A stretch of DNA of 64,000 bases, taken from the sequence record MZ189261.1. One strand, written 5' to 3'. Source of the stretch: Escherichia phage S143_2. Made by a program: the position numbers and the translations under genes. Position 1 is the first letter of the stretch. Every line of letters starts with the position of its first letter. Of this stretch, positions 18,580 through 34,249 are shown piece after piece. Below the pieces are notes generated by a model. The model did not search any database and was not told the DNA's origin. It saw nothing but the letters and a program-made list of their open reading frames with translations.

Positions 18580-19095
18580 ATGGCACAAATACTTCCTTTA
18601 AATACCGACTTAGGAGAAGACATGGAAGGGGCGTCTATTGACGTCCTTTTTACTCCACAGTTAGAAACAACCGAAACTTTAGTGTCAATAAATATAACAG
18701 ATTATGAACCGACACAAGGCATTACGGTGGATGGTAACCGTTTATATGGAACATATGAAAGTGTGTTTAGCTTTTCTTCAGATGCATTGAAATACCGATT
18801 AAATGATGATTTTGAAACCGCATCTTCATGGGATGATTTACCAAAAGATGAATCTACACAGTTATATTTGTGGAGAGCTCCTCAGAATCTTCGTAAAGTG
18901 TTTAGTTATACGGTTGAAATGATTTATAACTACCAAGAAGAAAGTTCATCAGGCGGTTCTAGAAGTGACTCTGGTACAGAACCTCCACCGGCTCCAGTAC
19001 AAAAAACTCTTACTAAGGTTTATACAAAAACTATAGTAGGAAATTGGAGCAAATGGGCTCATCAATTACGAAACTATGTTTATGTGAGGCCGTGA
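18580..19095 (+). CDS. 5.1: gp5.1
   Basis: 171-aa ORF in T4 5.1 position. Confidence 0.7.
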
Positions 19096-19097
19096 AA

Positions 19098-19391
19098 ATG
19101 TCAGGCTTAAGTTACGACAAGTGCGTTACAACAGGTCATGAAGCATGGCCTCCTACTGTAATAAATGCTTCCCAATCTAAAGTATTCACCGGCGGTATTC
19201 CTGTTCTTGTGGCAGGAGACCAAATAACACCCCATACAGAAATTAAAAAACCATACGAGACTCATGGAGGTGTTACTGAACCTCGTACATCTAAAGTATA
19301 CGTCACCGGTAAAAAGGCTGTTCAAATGGCTGACCCAATTTCATGCGGGGATACTGTTTCTCAGGCCTCGTCAAAAGTCTTTATAAAATAG
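19098..19391 (+). CDS. 5.4: gp5.4 PAAR-repeat spike tip
   Basis: Start trimmed to [21 protein letters not shown] (97 aa), near-identical to T4 gp5.4 as recalled. Confidence 0.85.
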
Positions 19392-26410: not shown

Positions 26411-28215
26411 TGAAACAAAATATTAAAATTGGTAACGTCGTTGATGACGGACAAGGCGATTACCTTCGTCGAGGTGGCGAAAAAATAAATGAGAACTTTG
26501 ACGAAATCTATTATGAATTAGGTGATGGTGAAGTTCCTTATGCCGCTGGTGCATGGAAGACTTATGATGCGGCTGATGGTCTTAATCTTAAGGCTGCTTG
26601 GGGTAAATCTTATGCAATTAATACTACTTCTGGGCGAGTTTCGGTAAATCTTCCTAAAGGGACAATTGCAGACTATAATAAAGTTATTCGTGCCCGTGAC
26701 GTATTTGCAACTTGGAACATTAACCCTGTTACTTTAATTCCGGCAAACGGAGACACGATTAAAGGTTCTTCATCTCCGGTGGAAATTAACGTTCAGTTCT
26801 CTGATTTAGAATTAGTTTATTGTGCTCCTGGACGTTGGGAATACATCAAGAACAAACAAATTGACAAAATAGTTAGCTCTGACATTAGTAACGTTGCTCG
26901 TAGAGAATATCTGGTTGAAACCCAAGGTCAGACCGATTTCATGGATGTTTTTAACGGGACCTCTTATAACGTTAACAACATTCGCGTAAAACATCGTGGC
27001 AACGAATTGTACTATGGTGATGTATTCAGTGATAACAGTGATTTTGGTTCTCCAGGCGCTAATCCTGGTGAACTGGTTGCACTTGATGGATTTAATATTA
27101 GATTACGCCAACCATGTAATGTTGGCGACACTGTACAAATTGAGACATTCTTAGATGGTGTTTCTCAGTGGCGTAGTTCATATACTCGTCGCCAAGTTCG
27201 CATTTTAGATAGTAAATTGACTGCTAAAAAATCTATTGACGGAAGTATTTACGTCACTGATTTGAGTACGTTCCGGTCTATTCCATTTACAGCATTTGGT
27301 ATTAATCCTACGGAACCACCTAACCCTAATTCGTTAGAAGTTCGCTTCAATGGTATTCTCCAAGAATTAGCTGGTACTGTTGGAACTCCTATTTTCCGTT
27401 GTGAAGGTGTGGATGCTGATTCTGAAGAGTCATGCGCTAATCTCGGTGGGACATGGACTCAATCATATACAGATTATGCGATTGAATATACTGATAATAT
27501 CCCTAGCGCAATTCTGTTTGACCGTCAATTTGAAGACCAAGACATTATTACCATCACATGGTTTAATAACGATTTAGGAACTCTTCTTGAAATGGACGAA
27601 ATCCTTGATGTCGCTGATGAGAAATATGTTTCTCAAGGGTCTAACATTGAAATTACTGGTGACGTTGCATTAACCGATTTCGATAAAATTGGATGGCCTA
27701 ATGTAGAACCTGTTCCTAAGTATGAACGTGAATTCTCGACTATCTCAGCAATATTTGATACAATTTATCCTGTCGGGACTATTTACGAAAATGCGGTTAA
27801 CCCTAATAATCCGGCCACTTATTTAGGTTTTGGTTCGTGGAAAATTTGGGGACAAGGCAAAGTATTAGCAGGTTGGAATGACGACGAGTCGGATCCTAAT
27901 TTTGCATTAAATAATAATGACCTTGACGTCAATGGTAACCCTACTCATACCGCAGGTGGGACCGTTGGTGTAACAACCATCACATTAGAAAATGCTGATT
28001 TACCAGCTACACAAACCGATGAAAAGGTTCTTATTTCTGATGATAATGGTACAGTAATTATAGGCGGTTGTCAATATGACCCAGATGAAGAAGGTCCTAT
28101 TTACACTAAATATCGTGAAGACCATGCAAAGACTAATGGATCTCATGTTCCAGCGCGTTCTATAACTAATATTCAGCCATCTATAACTGTATACCGTTGG
28201 GTAAGGATTGCATAA
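26410..28215 (+). CDS. 10: gp10 baseplate wedge
   Basis: 601 aa (T4 602 aa). Confidence 0.9.
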
Positions 28216-28874
28216 TGACTGTACTTAATACAAAGGCGGGAGTTATTTCCCGTCATGCTGATTTTTTGAATTACAGAAAAAATCCAGCTCAAATTGATGT
28301 TTTAAACAACCAAGCTGTAGGTTCCGTGACTATTTCTCAGTTAGCTCGCGGTTTTTATGATGCTAACGTAGAATCTGCAATAAACGATGTCCATAATATG
28401 GCACGAGCTGATATTGGTACTGTTGTCACAAACACTTCAGGCGTATCGCCTGAAGGTACAGCACAAGTTGATTATTGGACTTTTTCTGGTGATGTTCTCG
28501 ACGATACTTTGGCCCCTGGAACGCCGGTCGTTATTAACGTATTTGGACTTGCTGTTAAAGCAACAATTGGTATGACTGATAACGAATTAACGGCACAAGT
28601 TCGTATAGCTTTACAAGAAGCCATTGCTAATCAAATCGCTATTTCTTCTTATAAAGACCATCCGACCGAAGGTAATAAACTTCAGGTGACATATTTAGAT
28701 AACCAACGTCATGTGTTGCCAACATATGCTTCGTTTGGTGTAACAATTTCGCAAGAAATTTTGTCTGAAGCAAAATCCGGATACGGAACATGGAATTTAT
28801 TGGGTGCCCAAACGGTTACTCTTGATAACCATAGCACTCCTACCGTTTTCTACCACTTTGTGAGAGCCTCATGA
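28215..28874 (+). CDS. 11: gp11 baseplate wedge, short tail fibre attachment
   Basis: Start trimmed to [10 protein letters not shown] (219 aa as T4 gp11). Confidence 0.88.
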
Positions 28875-30454
28875 GTAATAACAATACATACCAACACGTT
28901 TCAAACGAATCCATTTACGTTGAATTCGACCCTACGGGGTCGAATTTTCCAGATACAGTCACTAATGTCCAAGCCGCATTAGCTGCTATTTCTCCTTCAG
29001 GTGTTAATGGTGTACCGGAAGCAACAACTACTACACCAGGAATTATTCAAATAGCTACTCCACAAGAAGTTATTGATGGATTAGATAATAGTAAAGCTGT
29101 TACTCCGGCAACACTGAATGCTCGTCTACAATATCCTAATGCAACCGAAACTCAATATGGCTTAACTCGTTATGCGACTGAAGATGAAGCAGTAACCGGA
29201 GCTATTGACGATGCATCAATTACTCCGCTTAAATTAAATCAAAAAATAGACAATGTATTTCAGACAAAAGTGTCGACAGAAGCAACAAATGGTGTAATTA
29301 AAATTTCAACTTCTGCCGCGGCATTAGCTGGTTCTGACGATACAACGGCAATGACTCCGTTAAAAACGCAACAATTAGCAATTAAACTTATTTCGCAAAT
29401 TGCTCCAAATAATAGTGACGCCACCGAATCTATTACAGGTGTTGTTCGTTTGGCTACAGTTGCTCAAGCACAACAAGGCACCCTGCGTGAAGGCTATGCA
29501 ATTTCACCTTATACCTTTATGAATTCAGTAGCATCAGAAACTAATAAAGGTGTCGTTAAACTAGGGACACAGACTGAAGTAAATAGTAACAACTCTTCAG
29601 TTGTAGTGACCGGCGCAACATTAAACGGACGTGGGGCTACAACTTCTTTACGTGGAGTTGTTCGTTTAACTACACAAGCCGGTAGCCAATCAGGTGGTGA
29701 TGGTTCTTCTGCCCTTGCTTGGAATGCTGATGTTATCCACCAACGAGGTGGACAAACTATTAATGGCACGCTTCGCATTAATAATACGTTGACGGTTGGT
29801 TCTGGTGGAGCTAATATAACTGGTAATGTCAATATGACCGGTGGTTATATTCAAGGCAATCGTATTGTGACTCAAAATGAATTAGACCGAATTCTTCCAG
29901 TTGGCGCTATTACAATGTGGGCTGCAGATAGTTTACCGAGTTCTGACTGGCGCTTCTGTCATGGTGGGACCGTTTCTGCTTCAGAATGCCCGGTATATGC
30001 TTCCAGAATTGGGACACGATATGGTGGTAGTTCTTCTAACCCAGGCTTGCCTGATATGCGTGGATTATTTGTTCGCGGCTCAGGTCGTGGTAACCATTTA
30101 ACTAACCCTAATGTTAATGGTAATGACCAATTCGGTAAGCCTCGTCTGGCGGTAGGTTGTACCGGTGGATATGTTGGTGAAGTGCAAAAACAACAGATGT
30201 CATATCATAAGCATGCTGGTGGTTTTGGTGAATATGACGATTCCGGTGCATTTGGTAATACTCGTCGTTCAAACTTTGTTGGTACTCGTAAAGGACTTGA
30301 CTGGGATAACCGTTCGTATTTTACTAACGAGGGATATGAAATTGATCCGGCGTCTCAGCGTAACTCTAGATATACCATGAATCGTCCAGAATTAATTGGA
30401 AATGAAACTCGCCCATGGAATATTTCTTTAAACTATATCATTAAGGTAAAATAA
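28871..30454 (+). CDS. 12: gp12 short tail fibre
   Basis: 527 aa as T4 gp12. Confidence 0.9.
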
Positions 30455-31902
30455 TGACTGATATAACTCTGGTAGATTTACCATATGTTGACGGCCCGCC
30501 AGACGCGGGTCAGAGCCGTATTGAATGGATTAAAAACGATGAAGAAATAACAGGTGCTGACACAAAATACGGTTCTGAAGGTGTAATGAACCGTCCTATT
30601 GTTGAAGTTCAACGTAACGTAGAAGCGTTAGATGTTAATATTAAAACTATAGCATCTTCTTTGAATACGGCCAATGAAGATATCAAAGTTATTCAAGGTA
30701 TTTTAGATGTTTCCGGGGATGTTGATGCTCTTGCACAGATAGGCCAGAACACCCAAGATATCGATGTCATTAAAGTCACAGTTCAAACCCATGCTAGTGA
30801 ATTGAATGATTTGAATAAACATATTGATGCGAATACTGATGATATTGGCGTTTATAATCAGGAAACAGATTCAGTTTATAGAACTGTTCGTAACGACCTG
30901 CTTTGGATTAAAAATGAATTAGGACAATATACCGGTCAAGATATTAATGGGGTTCCTACTCCAGGAAATGATAGCACTGGTATGAAACGCCGTATTATGA
31001 CTAATAGCTCCGTGATTGTTGACCACGGTGTTCGATTAACTGATTTAGAAACTAAATTTGCTGATTCTGACGTCGGCTCTTTAACTAATGAAGTCGAACA
31101 CTTACGCGAAGAAATGGGGCCTCGCACTTCTTTCACTACTCCAGTATTTAGTCGTCTTTCCGGTATTGATTTAACTTTGTCGCGTCAAAATGCTGACTTA
31201 GATGGCATTAAACAGTCTATTGGGTATCCTAATACGACTTCTATTATTACTACAACTAATGCGAATAGTTCAGCAATAAACGACATTAATCTTGAGCTCA
31301 ATCAATCGGGTGGTATTAAACCTCGTTTGACCACAGTAGAAACTGCCATTGGCGCCGATGATTTGCCTACTACAATCCAAGGACGTATTAAACTCAATAC
31401 TGATGCTATCGGAGCATTGAACACTGTTGTCGGCTCTGATTCTTCGTCAGGATTGCGTTTTAATGTGTCATGGTTAAATAACGTAGTCGGTGTTGACGCT
31501 TCAGGTGGGAAACCGGAACCAGAAGGCTCTTTGCTTTATCGTACTAGAGCGCTTGAAGGATCTATCGGTGAGATGAGTAACGACATTCAGAACATTCAAA
31601 CTGATGTTGGGACTAATACCACAGGGGTTAAGGGTTCTGTAAACACATTAAATACTCTTATAAACGGCACCAACCCAAATGGTTCGACTGTTGAAGAACG
31701 TGGTATATTGCCTACAGTTAAAAGTCATGATACGACAATTAATGGTTTAACTTCTAGAATTGCTACTCTTGAAACTGATTTGGCCGCTGCAGAAGCTGAA
31801 ATCCAAACTCTTAAGGACGCTGGATATATTGAAGATGCTCCTTCAGACGGTAAATTCTATGTTCGCAAAGACGGTGCATGGGTTGAACTTCCTACAGCTT
31901 AA
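30454..31902 (+). CDS. wac: fibritin (whisker antigen control)
   Basis: 482 aa coiled-coil with C-terminal GYIEDAPSDGKFYVRKDGAWVELP foldon. Confidence 0.92.
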   Translation: MTDITLVDLPYVDGPPDAGQSRIEWIKNDEEITGADTKYGSEGVMNRPIVEVQRNVEALDVNIKTIASSLNTANEDIKVIQGILDVSGDVDALAQIGQNTQDIDVIKVTVQTHASELNDLNKHIDANTDDIGVYNQETDSVYRTVRNDLLWIKNELGQYTGQDINGVPTPGNDSTGMKRRIMTNSSVIVDHGVRLTDLETKFADSDVGSLTNEVEHLREEMGPRTSFTTPVFSRLSGIDLTLSRQNADLDGIKQSIGYPNTTSIITTTNANSSAINDINLELNQSGGIKPRLTTVETAIGADDLPTTIQGRIKLNTDAIGALNTVVGSDSSSGLRFNVSWLNNVVGVDASGGKPEPEGSLLYRTRALEGSIGEMSNDIQNIQTDVGTNTTGVKGSVNTLNTLINGTNPNGSTVEERGILPTVKSHDTTINGLTSRIATLETDLAAAEAEIQTLKDAGYIEDAPSDGKFYVRKDGAWVELPTA

Positions 31903-31934
31903 TGAAAAGGGCCTTCGGGCCCTAAAGGATTTAT

Positions 31935-32861
31935 ATGTCAGGTTATAATGCACAAAACCCTAAAGAATTAAAGGATGTAATATTACGTCGTTTAGGCGCT
32001 CCTATTGTAAATGTTGAATTAACTACAGACCAAATTTATGATTGTATTTCACGAGCGTTAGAACTTTATGGCGAATACCATTTTGACGGGTTGAATAAAG
32101 GTTTCCATGTATTTTTTGTTGATGACGAAGAAAAATACCGTCACGGCGTATTTGATATGCGTGGTTCTAACGTATTTGCTGTAACAAGAATTATAAGAAC
32201 AAATGTTGGCTCTATTACTTCAATGGATGGTAATGCAACTTATCCATGGTTCACTGATTTCCTTTTAGGAATGGCCGGTGTTTCAGGTGGTATGGGTAGT
32301 AATTGTGGTAAATTCTACGGCCCGAACGCTTTTGGCGCTGACCTCGGGTATTATTCTCAATTAGTATCTTATATGGGTATGCTTCAAGATATGATTGCTC
32401 CTCTTCCAGATTTTTGGTTTAACTCTGCAAACGAGCAATTAAAAGTAATGGGTAACTTTAGACAGAAAGATGTCATTATCGTTGAATCATATGTTCGCTC
32501 TTATATCGAGACCCATAAGATGGTAGGAAATACAGTAGGGTACGGTCAGGTCGGTCCTCGTGATTCATGGTCTATTTCTGAACGTTATGATAATCCAGAC
32601 CATAATTTGGTCGGACGTCGAGTTGGTGAAGATCCTGCAACTAAACAAGGCGCATATAACAACCGCTGGGTTAAAGATTATGCAACTGCATTAGCTAAAG
32701 AGCTTAATGGACAAATTCTTGCTAAACATCAAGGTATGATGTTACCGGGTGGCGTCACTGTTGATGGTGTTCGATTAATTGAAGAAGCTCGTTTAGAGAA
32801 AGAAGCTTTACGAGAAGAGTTATATTTACTGGACCCTCCTGCAGGTATTTTGGTAGGTTAA
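31935..32861 (+). CDS. 13: gp13 neck protein
   Basis: 308 aa (T4 309 aa); synteny. Confidence 0.9.
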
Positions 32862-32862
32862 T

Positions 32863-33498
32863 ATGGCAACATACTACAGATTGTATATTACAACATTTGA
32901 AACATCCACCGGTATAAAGATTTATGGTGGTAAACACAAATCAGTTTACGAAGACCCTTCAAAAGACCCTTATACTGGGTCTGGTACCTTTATACGAAGG
33001 GCCAAAAGAAAATACGGTCCGTCTTGTATAAAAGAAATTATATGGTCTAAGCCATTTGAATCTAAAGCTCTAATGGATGAAGCTGAAGAGTTACTGGTAG
33101 ATGAATTATCCATTTTAGAAAATTGCGCAAATCTTGTTAAAGGTGGTGCAGGCGGAAGGTCGTATATTAACCCAGAAGATAATCCATCTATAGGACAAAA
33201 ACGTTCAGCCCAATCTAAAAAGAAAATGTCTGACGCCGCAAAATCAAGAAAATGGACTGAAGAAGGGTTAAGAAAACGTAAAGAATCTACAGCAAGAATG
33301 TGGAAAGATTTCAAACATAGACATCCTGATTTTTCTGGTTCAAAAAATCCAGCAGCTCGAAAAGTTAGTGTAAATGGTAAAATATTTAACACCTGCAAAG
33401 AATGTGGTGAAGAATTTAATATCACATCAAGCGCGGTTATAGGCCGATGCAAAAACAACAAACCTAAATGGGCAGGATGGAATTATGTCGACGTATAA
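32863..33498 (+). mobile_element. extra 211-aa ORF between genes 13 and 14; putative homing-endonuclease-like protein with C-terminal Cys cluster
   Basis: Not present between 13 and 14 in T4 as I recall; N-terminus YRLYITTFETSTGIKIYGG loosely GIY-(10)-YIG-like; C-terminal CKEC...C; 3' end overlaps gene 14 start. Confidence 0.4.
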
Positions 33499-34249
33499 TT
33501 CAAATTTATTTGCAAAGTTAGAAAACCGAGAAGGCTATTCTAAAACTAATGAAACCGAGATTTTAAACAAATACGTGAACTTCAACAAATACGAAAATAG
33601 TCAGACATTAGCCGATGTTCTAGTGGCAGAAAGCATACAGATGCGCGGTATTGAATGTTTTTATGTTCCACGTGAATATGTTGCCGTGGACCTTATCTTT
33701 GGTGAGGACCTTAAAAATAAATTTACTAAAGCATGGAAATTTGCTGCATATCTGAACTCTTTTGAAGGTTATGAAGGAGCGAAATCGTTCTTCAGCAACT
33801 TCGGAATGCAAGTTCAAGACGAAGTTACATTATCTATTAACCCAGGTCTTTTCAAACACCAGGTCAACAATCAGGAGCCCAAGGAAGGTGATTTAATATA
33901 CTTCCCAATGGACAACAGTTTGTTTGAGATTAACTGGGTTGAACCATATGACCCATTCTATCAAGTAGGTAAAAATGCGATTCGTAAAATTACTGCAGGC
34001 AAGTTTATTTACTCTGGCGAAGAAATCAATCCGGTGCTTCAGAAAAATGAAGGTATCAATATACCTGAATTTAGTGACTTGGAACTTAACCCTGTTAGAA
34101 ATCTTGACGGTATCCATGACATTAATATCGATGAATATTCTGAAGTTGAGCAAATCAATTCAGAGGCAAGTGAATATGTTGAGCCGTATGTAGTAGTTAA
34201 CAACCGTGGTAGACAAAATTCACCATTTGACGATGGGTTTATGAATTAA
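33485..34249 (+). CDS. 14: gp14 neck protein
   Basis: 254 aa (T4 256 aa). Confidence 0.9.

What the first reader, a model, noticed from the sequence alone, without database searches (positions are those of the whole stretch)
32863..33498. Extra ORF inserted between neck genes 13 and 14: putative homing-endonuclease-like gene
Genes 13 and 14 are adjacent in T4 as I recall. Here a 211-aa ORF fills the gap, overlaps the gene 14 start, and has an N-terminus (YRLYITTFETSTGIKIYGG, then an E/N-rich helix EAEELLVDELSILENCANL) loosely resembling a GIY-YIG nuclease core plus a C-terminal Cys cluster (CKEC..C) typical of endonuclease DNA-binding modules. The GIY-YIG match is imperfect.
Basis: partly seen in the sequence, partly recalled or inferred. 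Interest (0 to 1): 0.65.

Follow-up and report, generated by a model that had tools for sequence, protein, structure and literature searches.

The report
Seg-like homing endonuclease gene in neck operon
The extra 211-codon gene between phage neck genes 13 and 14 is a selfish, mobile "homing endonuclease" gene of a well-known type (a relative of T4 SegC), found in only a minority of otherwise near-identical phages; this is an ordinary kind of finding, though a clean example.

Summary
The ORF is real: 32863..33498, + strand, 211 aa. It starts 1 nt after the gene 13 stop and overlaps the gene 14 start by 14 nt. The window is a Mosigvirus (RB69-like T-even phage, nearly identical to phage moskry).

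The ORF is a free-standing GIY-YIG homing endonuclease gene of the T4 Seg family.
- **C-terminus:** it is an I-TevI-type NUMOD3 + helix-turn-helix DNA-binding module, not a Cys/zinc cluster.
- **Distribution:** only 12 of about 152 close Mosigvirus records carry it. The rest have genes 13 and 14 adjacent, as in T4.
- **Anatomy:** the element takes over the gene 14 ribosome site and first codons, and supplies a new SD+ATG for gene 14 from its own conserved 3' end.
- **Flank:** the first ~110 nt of gene 14 differ by ~35% from insert-free relatives, against ~0.5% further on. This is probably the self-immune version of the target site.
- **Other genera:** the same pattern recurs in Gaprivervirus and Slopekvirus.

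The gene is already annotated as an endonuclease in GenBank. I found no paper that characterises it. It is a new member of a known kind, of modest interest.

The parts
31935..32861 (+). Gene 13 (neck/head-completion protein gp13, 308 aa). Left flank, essentially unchanged by the insertion.
   Evidence: ORF. Annotated as gp13 in moskry, AV110 and others. Only 6 mismatches in 927 nt against insert-free AV110.
32852..32874 (+). Captured translation-initiation region: SD-like GGTAGG (32852-32857), gp13 stop TAA (32859-32861), then ATG GCA ACA TAC (Met-Ala-Thr-Tyr). In insert-free phages this is the start of gene 14. Here it starts the endonuclease ORF.
   Evidence: The alignment of the window with AV110 and AV109 is identical through ...GGTAGGTTAATATGGCAAC and then diverges. 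In Gaprivervirus (ATGGCTACTTA) and Slopekvirus (ATGCAA) the first codons of the HEG likewise equal the local gene 14 start.
32863..33498 (+). Free-standing homing endonuclease gene, 211 aa, Seg-like (SegC-related) GIY-YIG family.
   Evidence: PHROG 314 'homing endonuclease' E 2.6e-37. BLASTP to T4 SegC: 33% identity over residues 4-197, E 2e-16. Annotated as putative, homing or GIY-YIG endonuclease in most of the 12 GenBank records that carry it; one labels it a head closure protein and one is unannotated. dN/dS of 0.1-0.3 against orthologues in other genera.
32863..33147 (+). N-terminal GIY-YIG catalytic domain (about residues 1-95). Candidate catalytic residues: Y8, Y21, G23, E75, N90.
33175..33231 (+). 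NUMOD3-like DNA-binding linker motif (residues 105-123).
   Evidence: Pfam NUMOD3 at 16.9 bits, below the 20.4-bit cut-off. 12 of 13 family members match it. T4 SegC matches above the cut-off at the equivalent position.
33337..33474 (+). C-terminal helix-turn-helix DNA-binding domain of I-TevI type (residues 159-204).
   Evidence: Pfam I-TevI_DNA-bd at 22.6 bits, below the 27-bit cut-off. The family profile hits PDB 1i3j at E 4e-6. The Foldseek top hit is 1i3j with probability 1.00. 12 of 13 members match PF20987, best E 1.6e-10. Only C181 is conserved.
33474..33487 (+). Replacement translation-initiation region for gene 14, embedded in the last codons of the endonuclease (..W-N-Y-V..): SD AGGA (33474-33477), a 7-nt spacer, then ATG (33485-33487).
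   Evidence: Read from the sequence. The motif GGATGGAATTATG, encoding ..GWNY(A/V), is conserved at the HEG/gene 14 overlap in Mosigvirus and Slopekvirus, and as TTATGGAATTATG in Gaprivervirus. The distant Krischvirus Phi1 homologue also overlaps the gene 14 start.
33488..33595 (+). Recoded 5' tract of gene 14 that travels with the endonuclease gene: 38 substitutions in about 108 nt against insert-free relatives. Inferred to be the cleavage-immune version of the homing site, or a foreign flank that was co-converted.
   Evidence: Mismatch positions against AV110 and AV109, with only 3 mismatches in the next ~650 nt. There are 0-1 mismatches in gene 14 nt 1-119 among six HEG+ phages. The first ~50 nt are of this type only in HEG+ phages. 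The right-hand end of the tract varies between HEG+ phages: nt 119, ~129 or ~141.
33485..34249 (+). Gene 14 (neck protein gp14, 254 aa), intact. N-terminus MSTYNSN.. instead of MATYDKN..

Best explanation
The ORF is a free-standing homing endonuclease gene (HEG) of the phage Seg family. It has an N-terminal GIY-YIG nuclease domain, then a NUMOD3 motif and an I-TevI-type helix-turn-helix that binds DNA.

**Shown**
- It is an optional 622-bp insertion at the gene 13/gene 14 junction of a Mosigvirus.
- Its left junction lies within the first four codons of gene 14, so the endonuclease uses the original gene 14 ribosome-binding site and Met-Ala-Thr-Tyr start.
- Its conserved last codons (..Trp-Asn-Tyr-Val, GGATGGAATTATG) carry a new Shine-Dalgarno sequence and ATG that restore translation of the essential gene 14.
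- The first ~110 nt of gene 14 next to the insert are about 35% different from insert-free relatives.
- There is no consensus late promoter (TATAAATA) nearby.

**Inferred**
- It is probably made late in infection, as a promoter-less passenger of the late structural transcript.
- When a carrier phage and an insert-free relative infect the same cell, the enzyme binds the intact 13/14 junction or the start of gene 14 in the insert-free genome and cuts it.
- The break is repaired by recombination from the carrier genome. This copies the endonuclease gene plus a variable length of flanking gene 14 sequence into the recipient ('intronless homing').
- The carrier's own genome is immune, because the site is split by the insert and recoded.
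For: **Family**
- PHROG 314 'homing endonuclease' E 2.6e-37.
- Collinear with T4 SegC, 33% identity, E 2e-16.
- SegC has the same three-module architecture in Pfam.
- The AlphaFold model is confident in the N-terminal domain.
- Foldseek and a sequence profile both hit the I-TevI DNA-binding domain 1i3j.
- E75 and N90 align to I-TevI E75 and N90.
- Y8, Y21, G23 and E75 are invariant in 41 relatives.

**Mobility**
- Present in 12 of ~152 Mosigvirus records, at >=99.4% identity.
- Among HEG+ phages the HEG (1-4 mismatches in 636 nt) and the adjacent gene 14 tract (0-1 in 119 nt) are far less diverse than gene 13 (4-26 in 927 nt).
- Insert-free AV110 is closer to the window in gene 13 (6 mismatches) than four of the five HEG+ phages compared.
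- The right end of the donor-type tract varies (nt 119, 129, 141), as expected for co-conversion tracts.

**Target and immunity**
- 38 mismatches at 33488-33595, against 3 in the next 650 nt.
- The same local divergence occurs independently in Gaprivervirus RZ against TH41 and VR7.
- It also occurs in Slopekvirus phT4A against CP-p-KP-21068: 27 mismatches in gene 14 nt 5-72, then 9 in the remaining 675 nt.

**Constraint:** dN/dS is 0.1-0.3 between genera.

**Mechanism precedent:** intronless homing by SegF and SegG, as summarised in PMC2988022 and PMC2993671.
Against: - No cleavage or inheritance data exist for this protein or its close homologues; no characterisation turned up in four paper searches or look-ups.
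- The protein does not hit the Pfam GIY-YIG models PF01541 or PF19835, even at E<=10.
- The equivalent of the I-TevI catalytic Arg27 could not be assigned. Candidate positions (R25 in homologues is H25 here; R45/R46) are not invariant.
- The location of the target site is inferred only from sequence divergence.
- Insert-free mosaics (a20, SHSML-52-1, typing phage 13) carry part of the 'immune' tract, so part of that tract may be ordinary allelic variation.
- Late expression is inferred only from the absence of nearby promoter consensus.
Confidence: 0.85

Rival explanations
1. It is a decayed or domesticated homing endonuclease. The gene descends from a Seg-type HEG but no longer cleaves DNA. 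It persists because removing it would also remove the only ribosome-binding site and start codon of the essential gene 14, or because the DNA-binding protein has acquired a regulatory role, as I-TevI has in repressing itself.
For: - There is no direct Pfam GIY-YIG hit.
- The catalytic Arg equivalent is not identifiable, and the near-invariant R25 of close homologues is His here.
- The cassette supplies the gene 14 start, so imprecise loss would be lethal.
Against: - Y8, Y21, G23, E75 and N90 are all intact and conserved.
- The K-H at positions 24-25 matches the consensus of the wider family and of the active T4 SegC.
- dN/dS is 0.1-0.3.
- HEG diversity (0.2-0.6%) is lower than that of the flanks, and the tract ends vary. 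Both indicate recent spread rather than a stranded relic.
- Most Mosigviruses lack it, so it is not needed.
Confidence: 0.1
2. It is a phage-against-phage exclusion nuclease rather than a homing element in the strict sense. The enzyme cuts competitor genomes at the start of gene 14 or elsewhere. This mainly excludes or converts nearby markers, and may not often copy its own gene.
For: - Insert-free mosaics a20, SHSML-52-1 and typing phage 13 carry donor-type sequence in gene 14 nt ~51-141, but recipient-type sequence in nt 1-50 and no HEG. A break repaired with a short conversion tract would leave this pattern.
- Marker exclusion from a distant cleavage site is documented for SegG and SegF (cited in PMC2993671).
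Against: This is an extension of the homing model, not an alternative to it. The mosaics can equally arise by ordinary recombination between alleles. In Slopekvirus the diverged tract stops at nt 72, so no common distal site emerges.
Confidence: 0.04
3. It is a conserved neck or virion accessory gene, or a chance ORF.
For: Its location in the late structural operon and its tight translational coupling to genes 13 and 14.
Against: - It is absent from ~92% of close relatives, and from T4.
- It has strong homology to endonucleases.
- A 211-codon ORF with conserved orthologues in four genera is not chance.
- The antisense 163-aa ORF (32970..33461) has no family hit.
Confidence: 0.01

Closest known systems
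T4 SegC (free-standing GIY-YIG homing endonuclease between T4 genes 5.1 and 5.3)
   Same: Collinear full-length homology (33% identity, E 2e-16). Same module order: Seg-type GIY-YIG, then NUMOD3, then I-TevI-type HTH. Similar length (198 against 211 aa). Both are promoter-less cassettes riding on an existing transcript and overlapping a neighbouring ORF (PMC2988022).
   Different: A different insertion locus (13/14 junction, not 5.1/5.3) and therefore presumably a different target sequence. Only 33% identical. SegC passes the Pfam SegE_GIY-YIG cut-off, and this protein does not hit it at all. SegC activity has been shown experimentally; this protein's has not.
Annotated 'segC' or 'homing endonuclease' ORFs at the same 13/14 junction in other T4-like genera: Shigella phage SP18, vB_EcoM_RZ and VR26 (Gaprivervirus); phT4A and Klebsiella phages (Slopekvirus); Phi1 (Krischvirus)
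   Same: The same locus and the same overlap with the gene 14 start. 55-60% amino-acid identity (28% for Phi1). The 3' end ..KW.GWNY(A/V), which encodes the gene 14 SD+ATG, is conserved in Gaprivervirus and Slopekvirus; Phi1 ends ..KWKEFYYV but still overlaps the start. Distribution within each genus is sporadic: 9 of 33 and 16 of 114 records. The 5' end of gene 14 is locally recoded.
   Different: A different genus background (Mosigvirus, whose type phage RB69 was reported to lack HEGs altogether, PMC2993671). The first codons differ and match each host genus's own gene 14 start. The C-terminal tail is 2 residues longer (..YVDV).
I-TevI (group I intron-encoded GIY-YIG endonuclease of T4 td)
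   Different: It is free-standing, not intron-encoded. It lacks the I-TevI zinc finger and is 34 residues shorter. The N-terminal hairpin is 2 residues longer, and there is a Seg-specific insert (..DPYxGSG..) between strand 2 and helix 1. The Arg27 equivalent is unclear.
SegF / SegG 'intronless homing' systems of T4
   Same: The proposed mechanism: cleavage of the HEG-less allele of a neighbouring essential gene, repair from the HEG+ genome, co-conversion tracts of variable length, and sequence divergence of the donor allele that confers immunity (PMC2988022 and PMC2993671; tract data).
   Different: Here the diverged tract abuts the insertion point, whereas SegG cleaves at a site distant from its own gene (title of Liu et al. 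2003, as cited in PMC2993671). No genetic or biochemical data exist for this element.
HNH homing endonuclease at the 13/14 junction of phage T6
   Same: It occupies the same intergenic junction, which shows the site is a recurrent HEG landing place.
   Different: An unrelated nuclease family (Pfam HNH_4), 270 aa. It overlaps the end of gene 13 and leaves the native gene 14 start (ATGGCTACTTATGAT) untouched.

Membership tests
GIY-YIG nuclease superfamily | The GIY-YIG alpha/beta fold: a three-stranded sheet flanked by helices, in the order strand-strand-helix-strand-helix. | tested here: met
GIY-YIG nuclease superfamily | Conserved catalytic residues: the Tyr of 'GIY', the Tyr and Gly of 'YIG', the metal-binding Glu (I-TevI E75) and Asn (N90). 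| tested here: met
   Y8 (RLY), Y21 and G23 (IYGG), E75 and N90. hhalign pairs E75 with E75 and N90 with N90. Y8, Y21, G23 and E75 are invariant and N90 nearly invariant in 41 relatives of 23-38% identity.
GIY-YIG nuclease superfamily | The conserved catalytic Arg (I-TevI R27). | tested here: inconclusive
   No invariant Arg was found. R25 of close homologues is H25 here, which matches the wider-family consensus GKH and SegC VHK. R45 and R46 are variable, and SegC has K-N there. K50 is nearly invariant. A structural superposition with residue mapping was not available.
GIY-YIG nuclease superfamily | A match to the curated sequence profiles (Pfam PF01541 GIY-YIG or PF19835 SegE_GIY-YIG). | tested here: not met
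   No hit for this protein, even at E<=10. The link is indirect: the Phi1 orthologue (29.5 bits), T4 SegC (26.4 bits) and 4 of 41 relatives pass or match PF19835. This is a detection tool rather than a defining property. Fold and residues were tested separately.
Seg-type free-standing homing endonucleases of T4-like phages | Sequence homology to characterised Seg proteins across both the catalytic and the DNA-binding parts. | tested here: met
   BLASTP to T4 SegC covers residues 4-197, 33% identity, E 2e-16. PHROG 314 E 2.6e-37 over residues 1-210. tblastn also hits ORFs annotated as segD and segH.
Seg-type free-standing homing endonucleases of T4-like phages | A C-terminal modular DNA-binding region (NUMOD3 and/or an I-TevI-like HTH). 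| tested here: met
   Each Pfam hit is individually below its cut-off: NUMOD3 16.9 against 20.4 bits, I-TevI_DNA-bd 22.6 against 27 bits. The family profile hits 1i3j at E 4e-6. 12 of 13 members match both. Foldseek's top hit is 1i3j.
Seg-type free-standing homing endonucleases of T4-like phages | Free-standing (not within an intron or intein), optional, and patchily distributed among close relatives. | tested here: met
   12 of ~152 Mosigvirus records, 9 of 33 Gaprivervirus and 16 of 114 Slopekvirus. Absent in T4. Genes 13 and 14 are intact on either side.
Seg-type free-standing homing endonucleases of T4-like phages | The donor genome carries a diverged (immune) version of the sequence around the insertion site, and co-conversion tracts vary in length. 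| tested here: met
   38 mismatches in 108 nt, against 3 in the next 650 nt. Replicated in two other genera. Tract ends fall at nt 119, ~129 or ~141 in different HEG+ phages. That this divergence actually confers immunity is inferred, not tested.
Seg-type free-standing homing endonucleases of T4-like phages | Site-specific double-strand cleavage of the HEG-less allele, and super-Mendelian inheritance in mixed infection. | not testable with these tools
   This needs biochemistry and phage crosses. No published data turned up in four paper searches or look-ups.

The most novel reading that the evidence does not exclude
This is a lineage of Seg-like endonuclease genes specialised for one landing site, the first codons of neck gene 14. 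It occurs in at least three genera of T4-like phages (Mosigvirus, Gaprivervirus, Slopekvirus), with a distant 28%-identical homologue at the same junction in Krischvirus. It has evolved a 'start-swap' design. The element takes the victim gene's ribosome site and first 2-4 codons for itself, and hard-wires a replacement SD+ATG for the essential downstream gene into its own conserved C-terminal codons (W-N-Y). Any imprecise deletion of the element therefore kills the phage. The insert-free mosaics (a20, SHSML-52-1, typing phage 13) would then be footprints of endonuclease-driven gene conversion that diversifies the gp14 N-terminus without transferring the HEG. If true, this would be cross-genus spread of a free-standing HEG, which the 2010 review PMC2993671 said lacked convincing evidence.
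Probability: 0.3. Interest if true: 0.45.

Novelty: new member of a known kind. Interest (0 to 1): 0.27.

Why it matters
For genome annotation, it settles that the extra gene in the neck operon is a selfish mobile nuclease and not a new virion component. It also shows that the unusual gp14 N-terminus of these phages is a by-product of the element.

For phage biology, it gives a compact natural example of intronless homing, replicated in three genera, with clearly readable junctions. The element hijacks the translation start of an essential gene and supplies a substitute, which may help explain how such elements persist in tightly packed structural operons.

In practice, HEG+ therapeutic or biocontrol phages such as moskry, F2 and JM10 could bias recombination in cocktails that also contain HEG-free Mosigviruses. 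The enzyme could also be a new sequence-specific GIY-YIG nuclease, if its roughly 30-40 bp target were mapped.

None of this overturns current understanding.

Tried and rejected
1. **Direct Pfam and NCBIfam scans for a GIY-YIG or HNH domain.** No catalytic-domain hit. There were only sub-threshold I-TevI_DNA-bd, NUMOD3 and TIGR01453 matches to the C-terminal half. I therefore turned to profiles, fold prediction and SegC.
2. **phmmer of the single sequence against PDB.** Top hits were spurious (interferon gamma, E 0.035). I-TevI scored only E 0.12. A profile of 13 homologues was needed.
4. **hhalign of the 41-sequence alignment against the I-TevI catalytic domain.** The result was statistically weak (E 0.037, probability 1.4%). 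I used it only as a guide for motif register, not as evidence.
5. **The Cys/zinc cluster hypothesis.** Rejected. The cysteines are not conserved, and a weak hit to a treble-clef model (E 0.16) is noise.
6. **A shared distal cleavage site at gene 14 codons ~25-30 (loss of Pro29).** This is seen in Mosigvirus and Gaprivervirus, but not supported in Slopekvirus, where Asn-Lys-Tyr is native and the tract ends at nt 72.
7. **A search for the element's own promoter.** There is no TATAAATA between 25498 and 37442 on the + strand. The only match nearby is a one-mismatch site inside the ORF at 32913. Sigma-70-like hits are no more frequent than in shuffled sequence.
8. **Literature search for a characterised 13/14 endonuclease.** Nothing was found. 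The RB49 genome paper PMC135041 is not held in the library.
9. **A donor lineage for the recoded tract.** The best match outside the HEG+ phages and the Mosigvirus mosaics is only ~78% (Klebsiella phages), so the source is unidentified.

Full report
**1. Observation**

Upstream is a 308-aa gp13 homologue (31935..32861). Downstream is a 254-aa gp14 homologue (33485..34249). Further out lie the short tail fibre gene 12, wac, gene 15 and terminase genes 16 and 17, in the T4 order. The ORF starts one nucleotide after the gene 13 stop (TAA-T-ATG) and overlaps gene 14 by 14 nt.

The window is a Mosigvirus (RB69-like T-even phage). It is collinear, coordinate for coordinate, with Escherichia phage moskry MN850651.

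**2. It is an optional insert**

- megablast of the ORF finds only 12 phage records, all Escherichia Mosigviruses, at 99.4-100% identity.
- The same search with genes 13 and 14 included finds 152 records at >=95% identity. About 140 of them lack the ORF; their match spans 1693 bp instead of 2315 bp, so the insert is 622 bp.
- In insert-free AV110 and AV109, gene 13 and gene 14 are 1 nt apart. The same is true in T4 itself (gp13 ends at 94521, gp14 starts at 94523).

**3. What the protein is**

*Sequence evidence*
- PHROGs: family 314 'homing endonuclease', E 2.6e-37 over residues 1-210.
- Pfam: only sub-threshold matches, to I-TevI_DNA-bd (residues 159-204) and NUMOD3 (105-123). There is no GIY-YIG hit.
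- NCBIfam: a sub-threshold 'group I intron endonuclease' match to the C-terminal half.
- tblastn and BLASTP: collinear homology to T4 SegC, 33% identity over residues 4-197, E 2e-16.
- SegC itself scores in Pfam as SegE_GIY-YIG + NUMOD3 + I-TevI_DNA-bd, the same module order.
- An exhaustive profile search finds 7100 cluster representatives at E<=0.001, so this is a large family.
- Across 41 relatives of 23-38% identity, Y8, Y21, G23, Y37, G39, G41, E75 and G94 are invariant and N90 nearly so. Four of the 41 hit Pfam SegE_GIY-YIG.
- A profile of close homologues aligned to I-TevI pairs E75 with the catalytic E75 and N90 with N90. The alignment continues through the linker into the C-terminal HTH. 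The I-TevI sequence used was checked against PDB chains.

*Fold evidence*
- The AlphaFold2 model has mean pLDDT 82.7, and about 90 for residues 1-90. The topology there is strand-strand-helix-strand-helix.
- Foldseek's top hit is the I-TevI DNA-binding domain 1i3j. The sequence profile also hits it, at E 4e-6.

*Caveats*
- The equivalent of the I-TevI Arg27 could not be assigned.
- The 'CKEC..C' cysteines are not a cluster. Only C181 is conserved, and the segment is helix 1 of the HTH.

**4. Anatomy of the insertion**

*Left junction.* The window is identical to insert-free phages through ...GGTAGGTTAATATGGCAAC, that is, through the gene 14 ribosome site and its first codons (Met-Ala-Thr-Tyr). 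It then diverges into the endonuclease. The same holds in two other genera.
- In Gaprivervirus the HEG of RZ starts ATGGCTACTTA.., like the local gene 14.
- In Slopekvirus the HEG of phT4A starts ATGCAA.., like the local gene 14 (MQNW..).
- The HEG N-termini thus differ between genera (MATYY.. against MQF..) and match each host's own gene 14 start.
- So the element sits inside the first codons of gene 14 and uses that gene's initiation region.

*Right junction.* The last codons of the endonuclease (..Trp-Asn-Tyr-Val/Ala; GGATGGAATTATG) contain an AGGA Shine-Dalgarno sequence 7 nt before a new ATG for gene 14. This motif is conserved in the Mosigvirus and Slopekvirus copies, and as TTATGGAATTATG in Gaprivervirus. 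The distant Phi1 homologue also overlaps the gene 14 start.

*Promoter.* No late-promoter consensus lies between 25498 and 37442 on the + strand. The gene is therefore a promoter-less cassette in a late transcript, as the review PMC2988022 describes for segC, segF and segG.

**5. Footprint in gene 14**

Against AV110 and AV109, the window has 38 substitutions at 33488-33595 (gene 14 nt 4-111). It has only 3 in the remaining ~650 nt of gene 14, and 6-7 in all of gene 13.

| Region compared with the window | Five other HEG+ phages | Insert-free AV110 |
|---|---|---|
| HEG (636 nt) | 1-4 mismatches | - |
| Gene 14 nt 1-119 | 0-1 | 38 |
| Gene 13 (927 nt) | 4-26 | 6 |

- The cassette is therefore much less diverse than its surroundings. 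It occurs in backgrounds that are less similar to each other than to an insert-free phage.
- The right end of the donor-type tract differs between HEG+ phages: nt 119 in the window and moskry, ~129 in JM10, and ~141 in phiEC1, 308Ecol101PP and SQ17. This is what variable co-conversion tracts would leave.
- Three insert-free phages (a20, SHSML-52-1, O157 typing phage 13) are mosaics. They have donor-type sequence distal to nt ~51, 72 and 57 respectively, but recipient-type sequence in the first ~50 nt. Only HEG+ phages have the donor type there.
- The same local divergence occurs in Gaprivervirus: the last ~25 nt of gene 13 and the first ~90 nt of gene 14.
- It also occurs in Slopekvirus: 27 mismatches in gene 14 nt 5-72, then 9 in the remaining 675 nt.
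- I infer that the enzyme's recognition and cleavage site lies at or near the intact 13/14 junction and the first ~70 nt of gene 14 in insert-free genomes. The carrier would be immune because the site is both split and recoded. This is inference from sequence only.

**6. Selection and distribution**

- dN/dS between orthologues of different genera is 0.1-0.3.
- Of the nine distinct variant sites seen among five other Mosigvirus copies, seven are synonymous.
- Frequency is 12 of ~152 records in Mosigvirus, 9 of 33 in Gaprivervirus and 16 of 114 in Slopekvirus.
- A 28%-identical 'segC' occupies the same site in Krischvirus Phi1.

**7. Comparison with what is known**

This is a Seg-family free-standing GIY-YIG HEG. 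The proposed mechanism is the 'intronless homing' and marker exclusion shown for T4 SegF and SegG (PMC2988022 and PMC2993671).

The exact protein is already annotated as 'putative endonuclease', 'homing endonuclease' or 'GIY-YIG endonuclease' in most of the 12 GenBank records. Orthologues at the same junction have been annotated in records such as SP18 and Phi1. I found no paper that characterises it.

Two points are mildly noteworthy. RB69, the Mosigvirus prototype, was reported to have no HEGs. The 2010 review also saw no convincing evidence that HEGs cross between T4-like clusters. Here one HEG lineage holds the same site in at least three genera.

**8. Verdict**

The element is a new member of a known kind. 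Confidence is 0.85 that it is a Seg-like GIY-YIG homing endonuclease gene, and about 0.6 that it is currently active with a target in the first ~70-110 nt of insert-free gene 14. Interest is modest.

Noticed in passing
L012 (phage T6, NC_054907.1) 387-1199: Phage T6 carries a different homing endonuclease at the same 13/14 junction: 270 aa, Pfam HNH_4, unrelated to the Seg-like one. It overlaps the end of gene 13 and leaves the native gene 14 start intact. The junction is therefore a recurrent landing site for two nuclease families.
   Followed up: partly
L009 (a20), L010 (SHSML-52-1) and L011 (O157 typing phage 13), gene 14 nt 1-141; corresponds to window 33485-33625: These insert-free Mosigviruses have mosaic gene 14 5' ends. 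The first ~50 nt are recipient-type, followed by donor-type (window-like) sequence starting at nt ~51, 72 and 57. 22 records fall in the 80-90% identity band. They may be footprints of HEG-induced gene conversion without HEG transfer, of HEG loss, or of ordinary recombination.
   Followed up: partly
window 27900-31900, compared with L018 (SQ17): HEG+ phage SQ17 is ~25-50% divergent from the window across genes 10, 11, 12 and wac (49-136 mismatches per 250 bp). It becomes near-identical from ~31900 onward. This is a sharp mosaic boundary at the wac/gene 13 intergenic region.
   Followed up: no
window 31908-31923: A perfect GC-rich palindromic hairpin (AGGGCCTTCGGGCCCT) lies in the 32-nt spacer between wac and gene 13. 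On the + strand it is not followed by a T-run. It coincides with the mosaic boundary seen against SQ17, and may be an RNA-stability or recombination-junction element of the kind described as PeSLs in T4-like phages (PMC4122927 turned up in a literature search but was not read).
   Followed up: no
window 32970-33461 (- strand): A 163-aa TTG ORF runs antisense to the endonuclease gene. It has no Pfam hit and is most likely a by-product of the purine-rich coding strand (AT skew up to +0.26 at this position).
   Followed up: partly
window 18622-19391: By the moskry annotation, gene 5.1 is followed directly by the gene 5.4 homologue (annotated 'phospholipase'). This phage therefore lacks segC at the T4 segC locus, while carrying a SegC-like gene at 13/14 instead.
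   Followed up: no
window 33485-33595, protein level: The recoded tract changes eight residues of the gp14 N-terminus (A2S, D5N, K6S, G16E, Q20K, P29K, F30Y, N35K) relative to insert-free Mosigviruses. Loss of Pro29 is also seen in HEG+ Gaprivervirus (P to Q). Whether this affects neck assembly is unknown.
   Followed up: no
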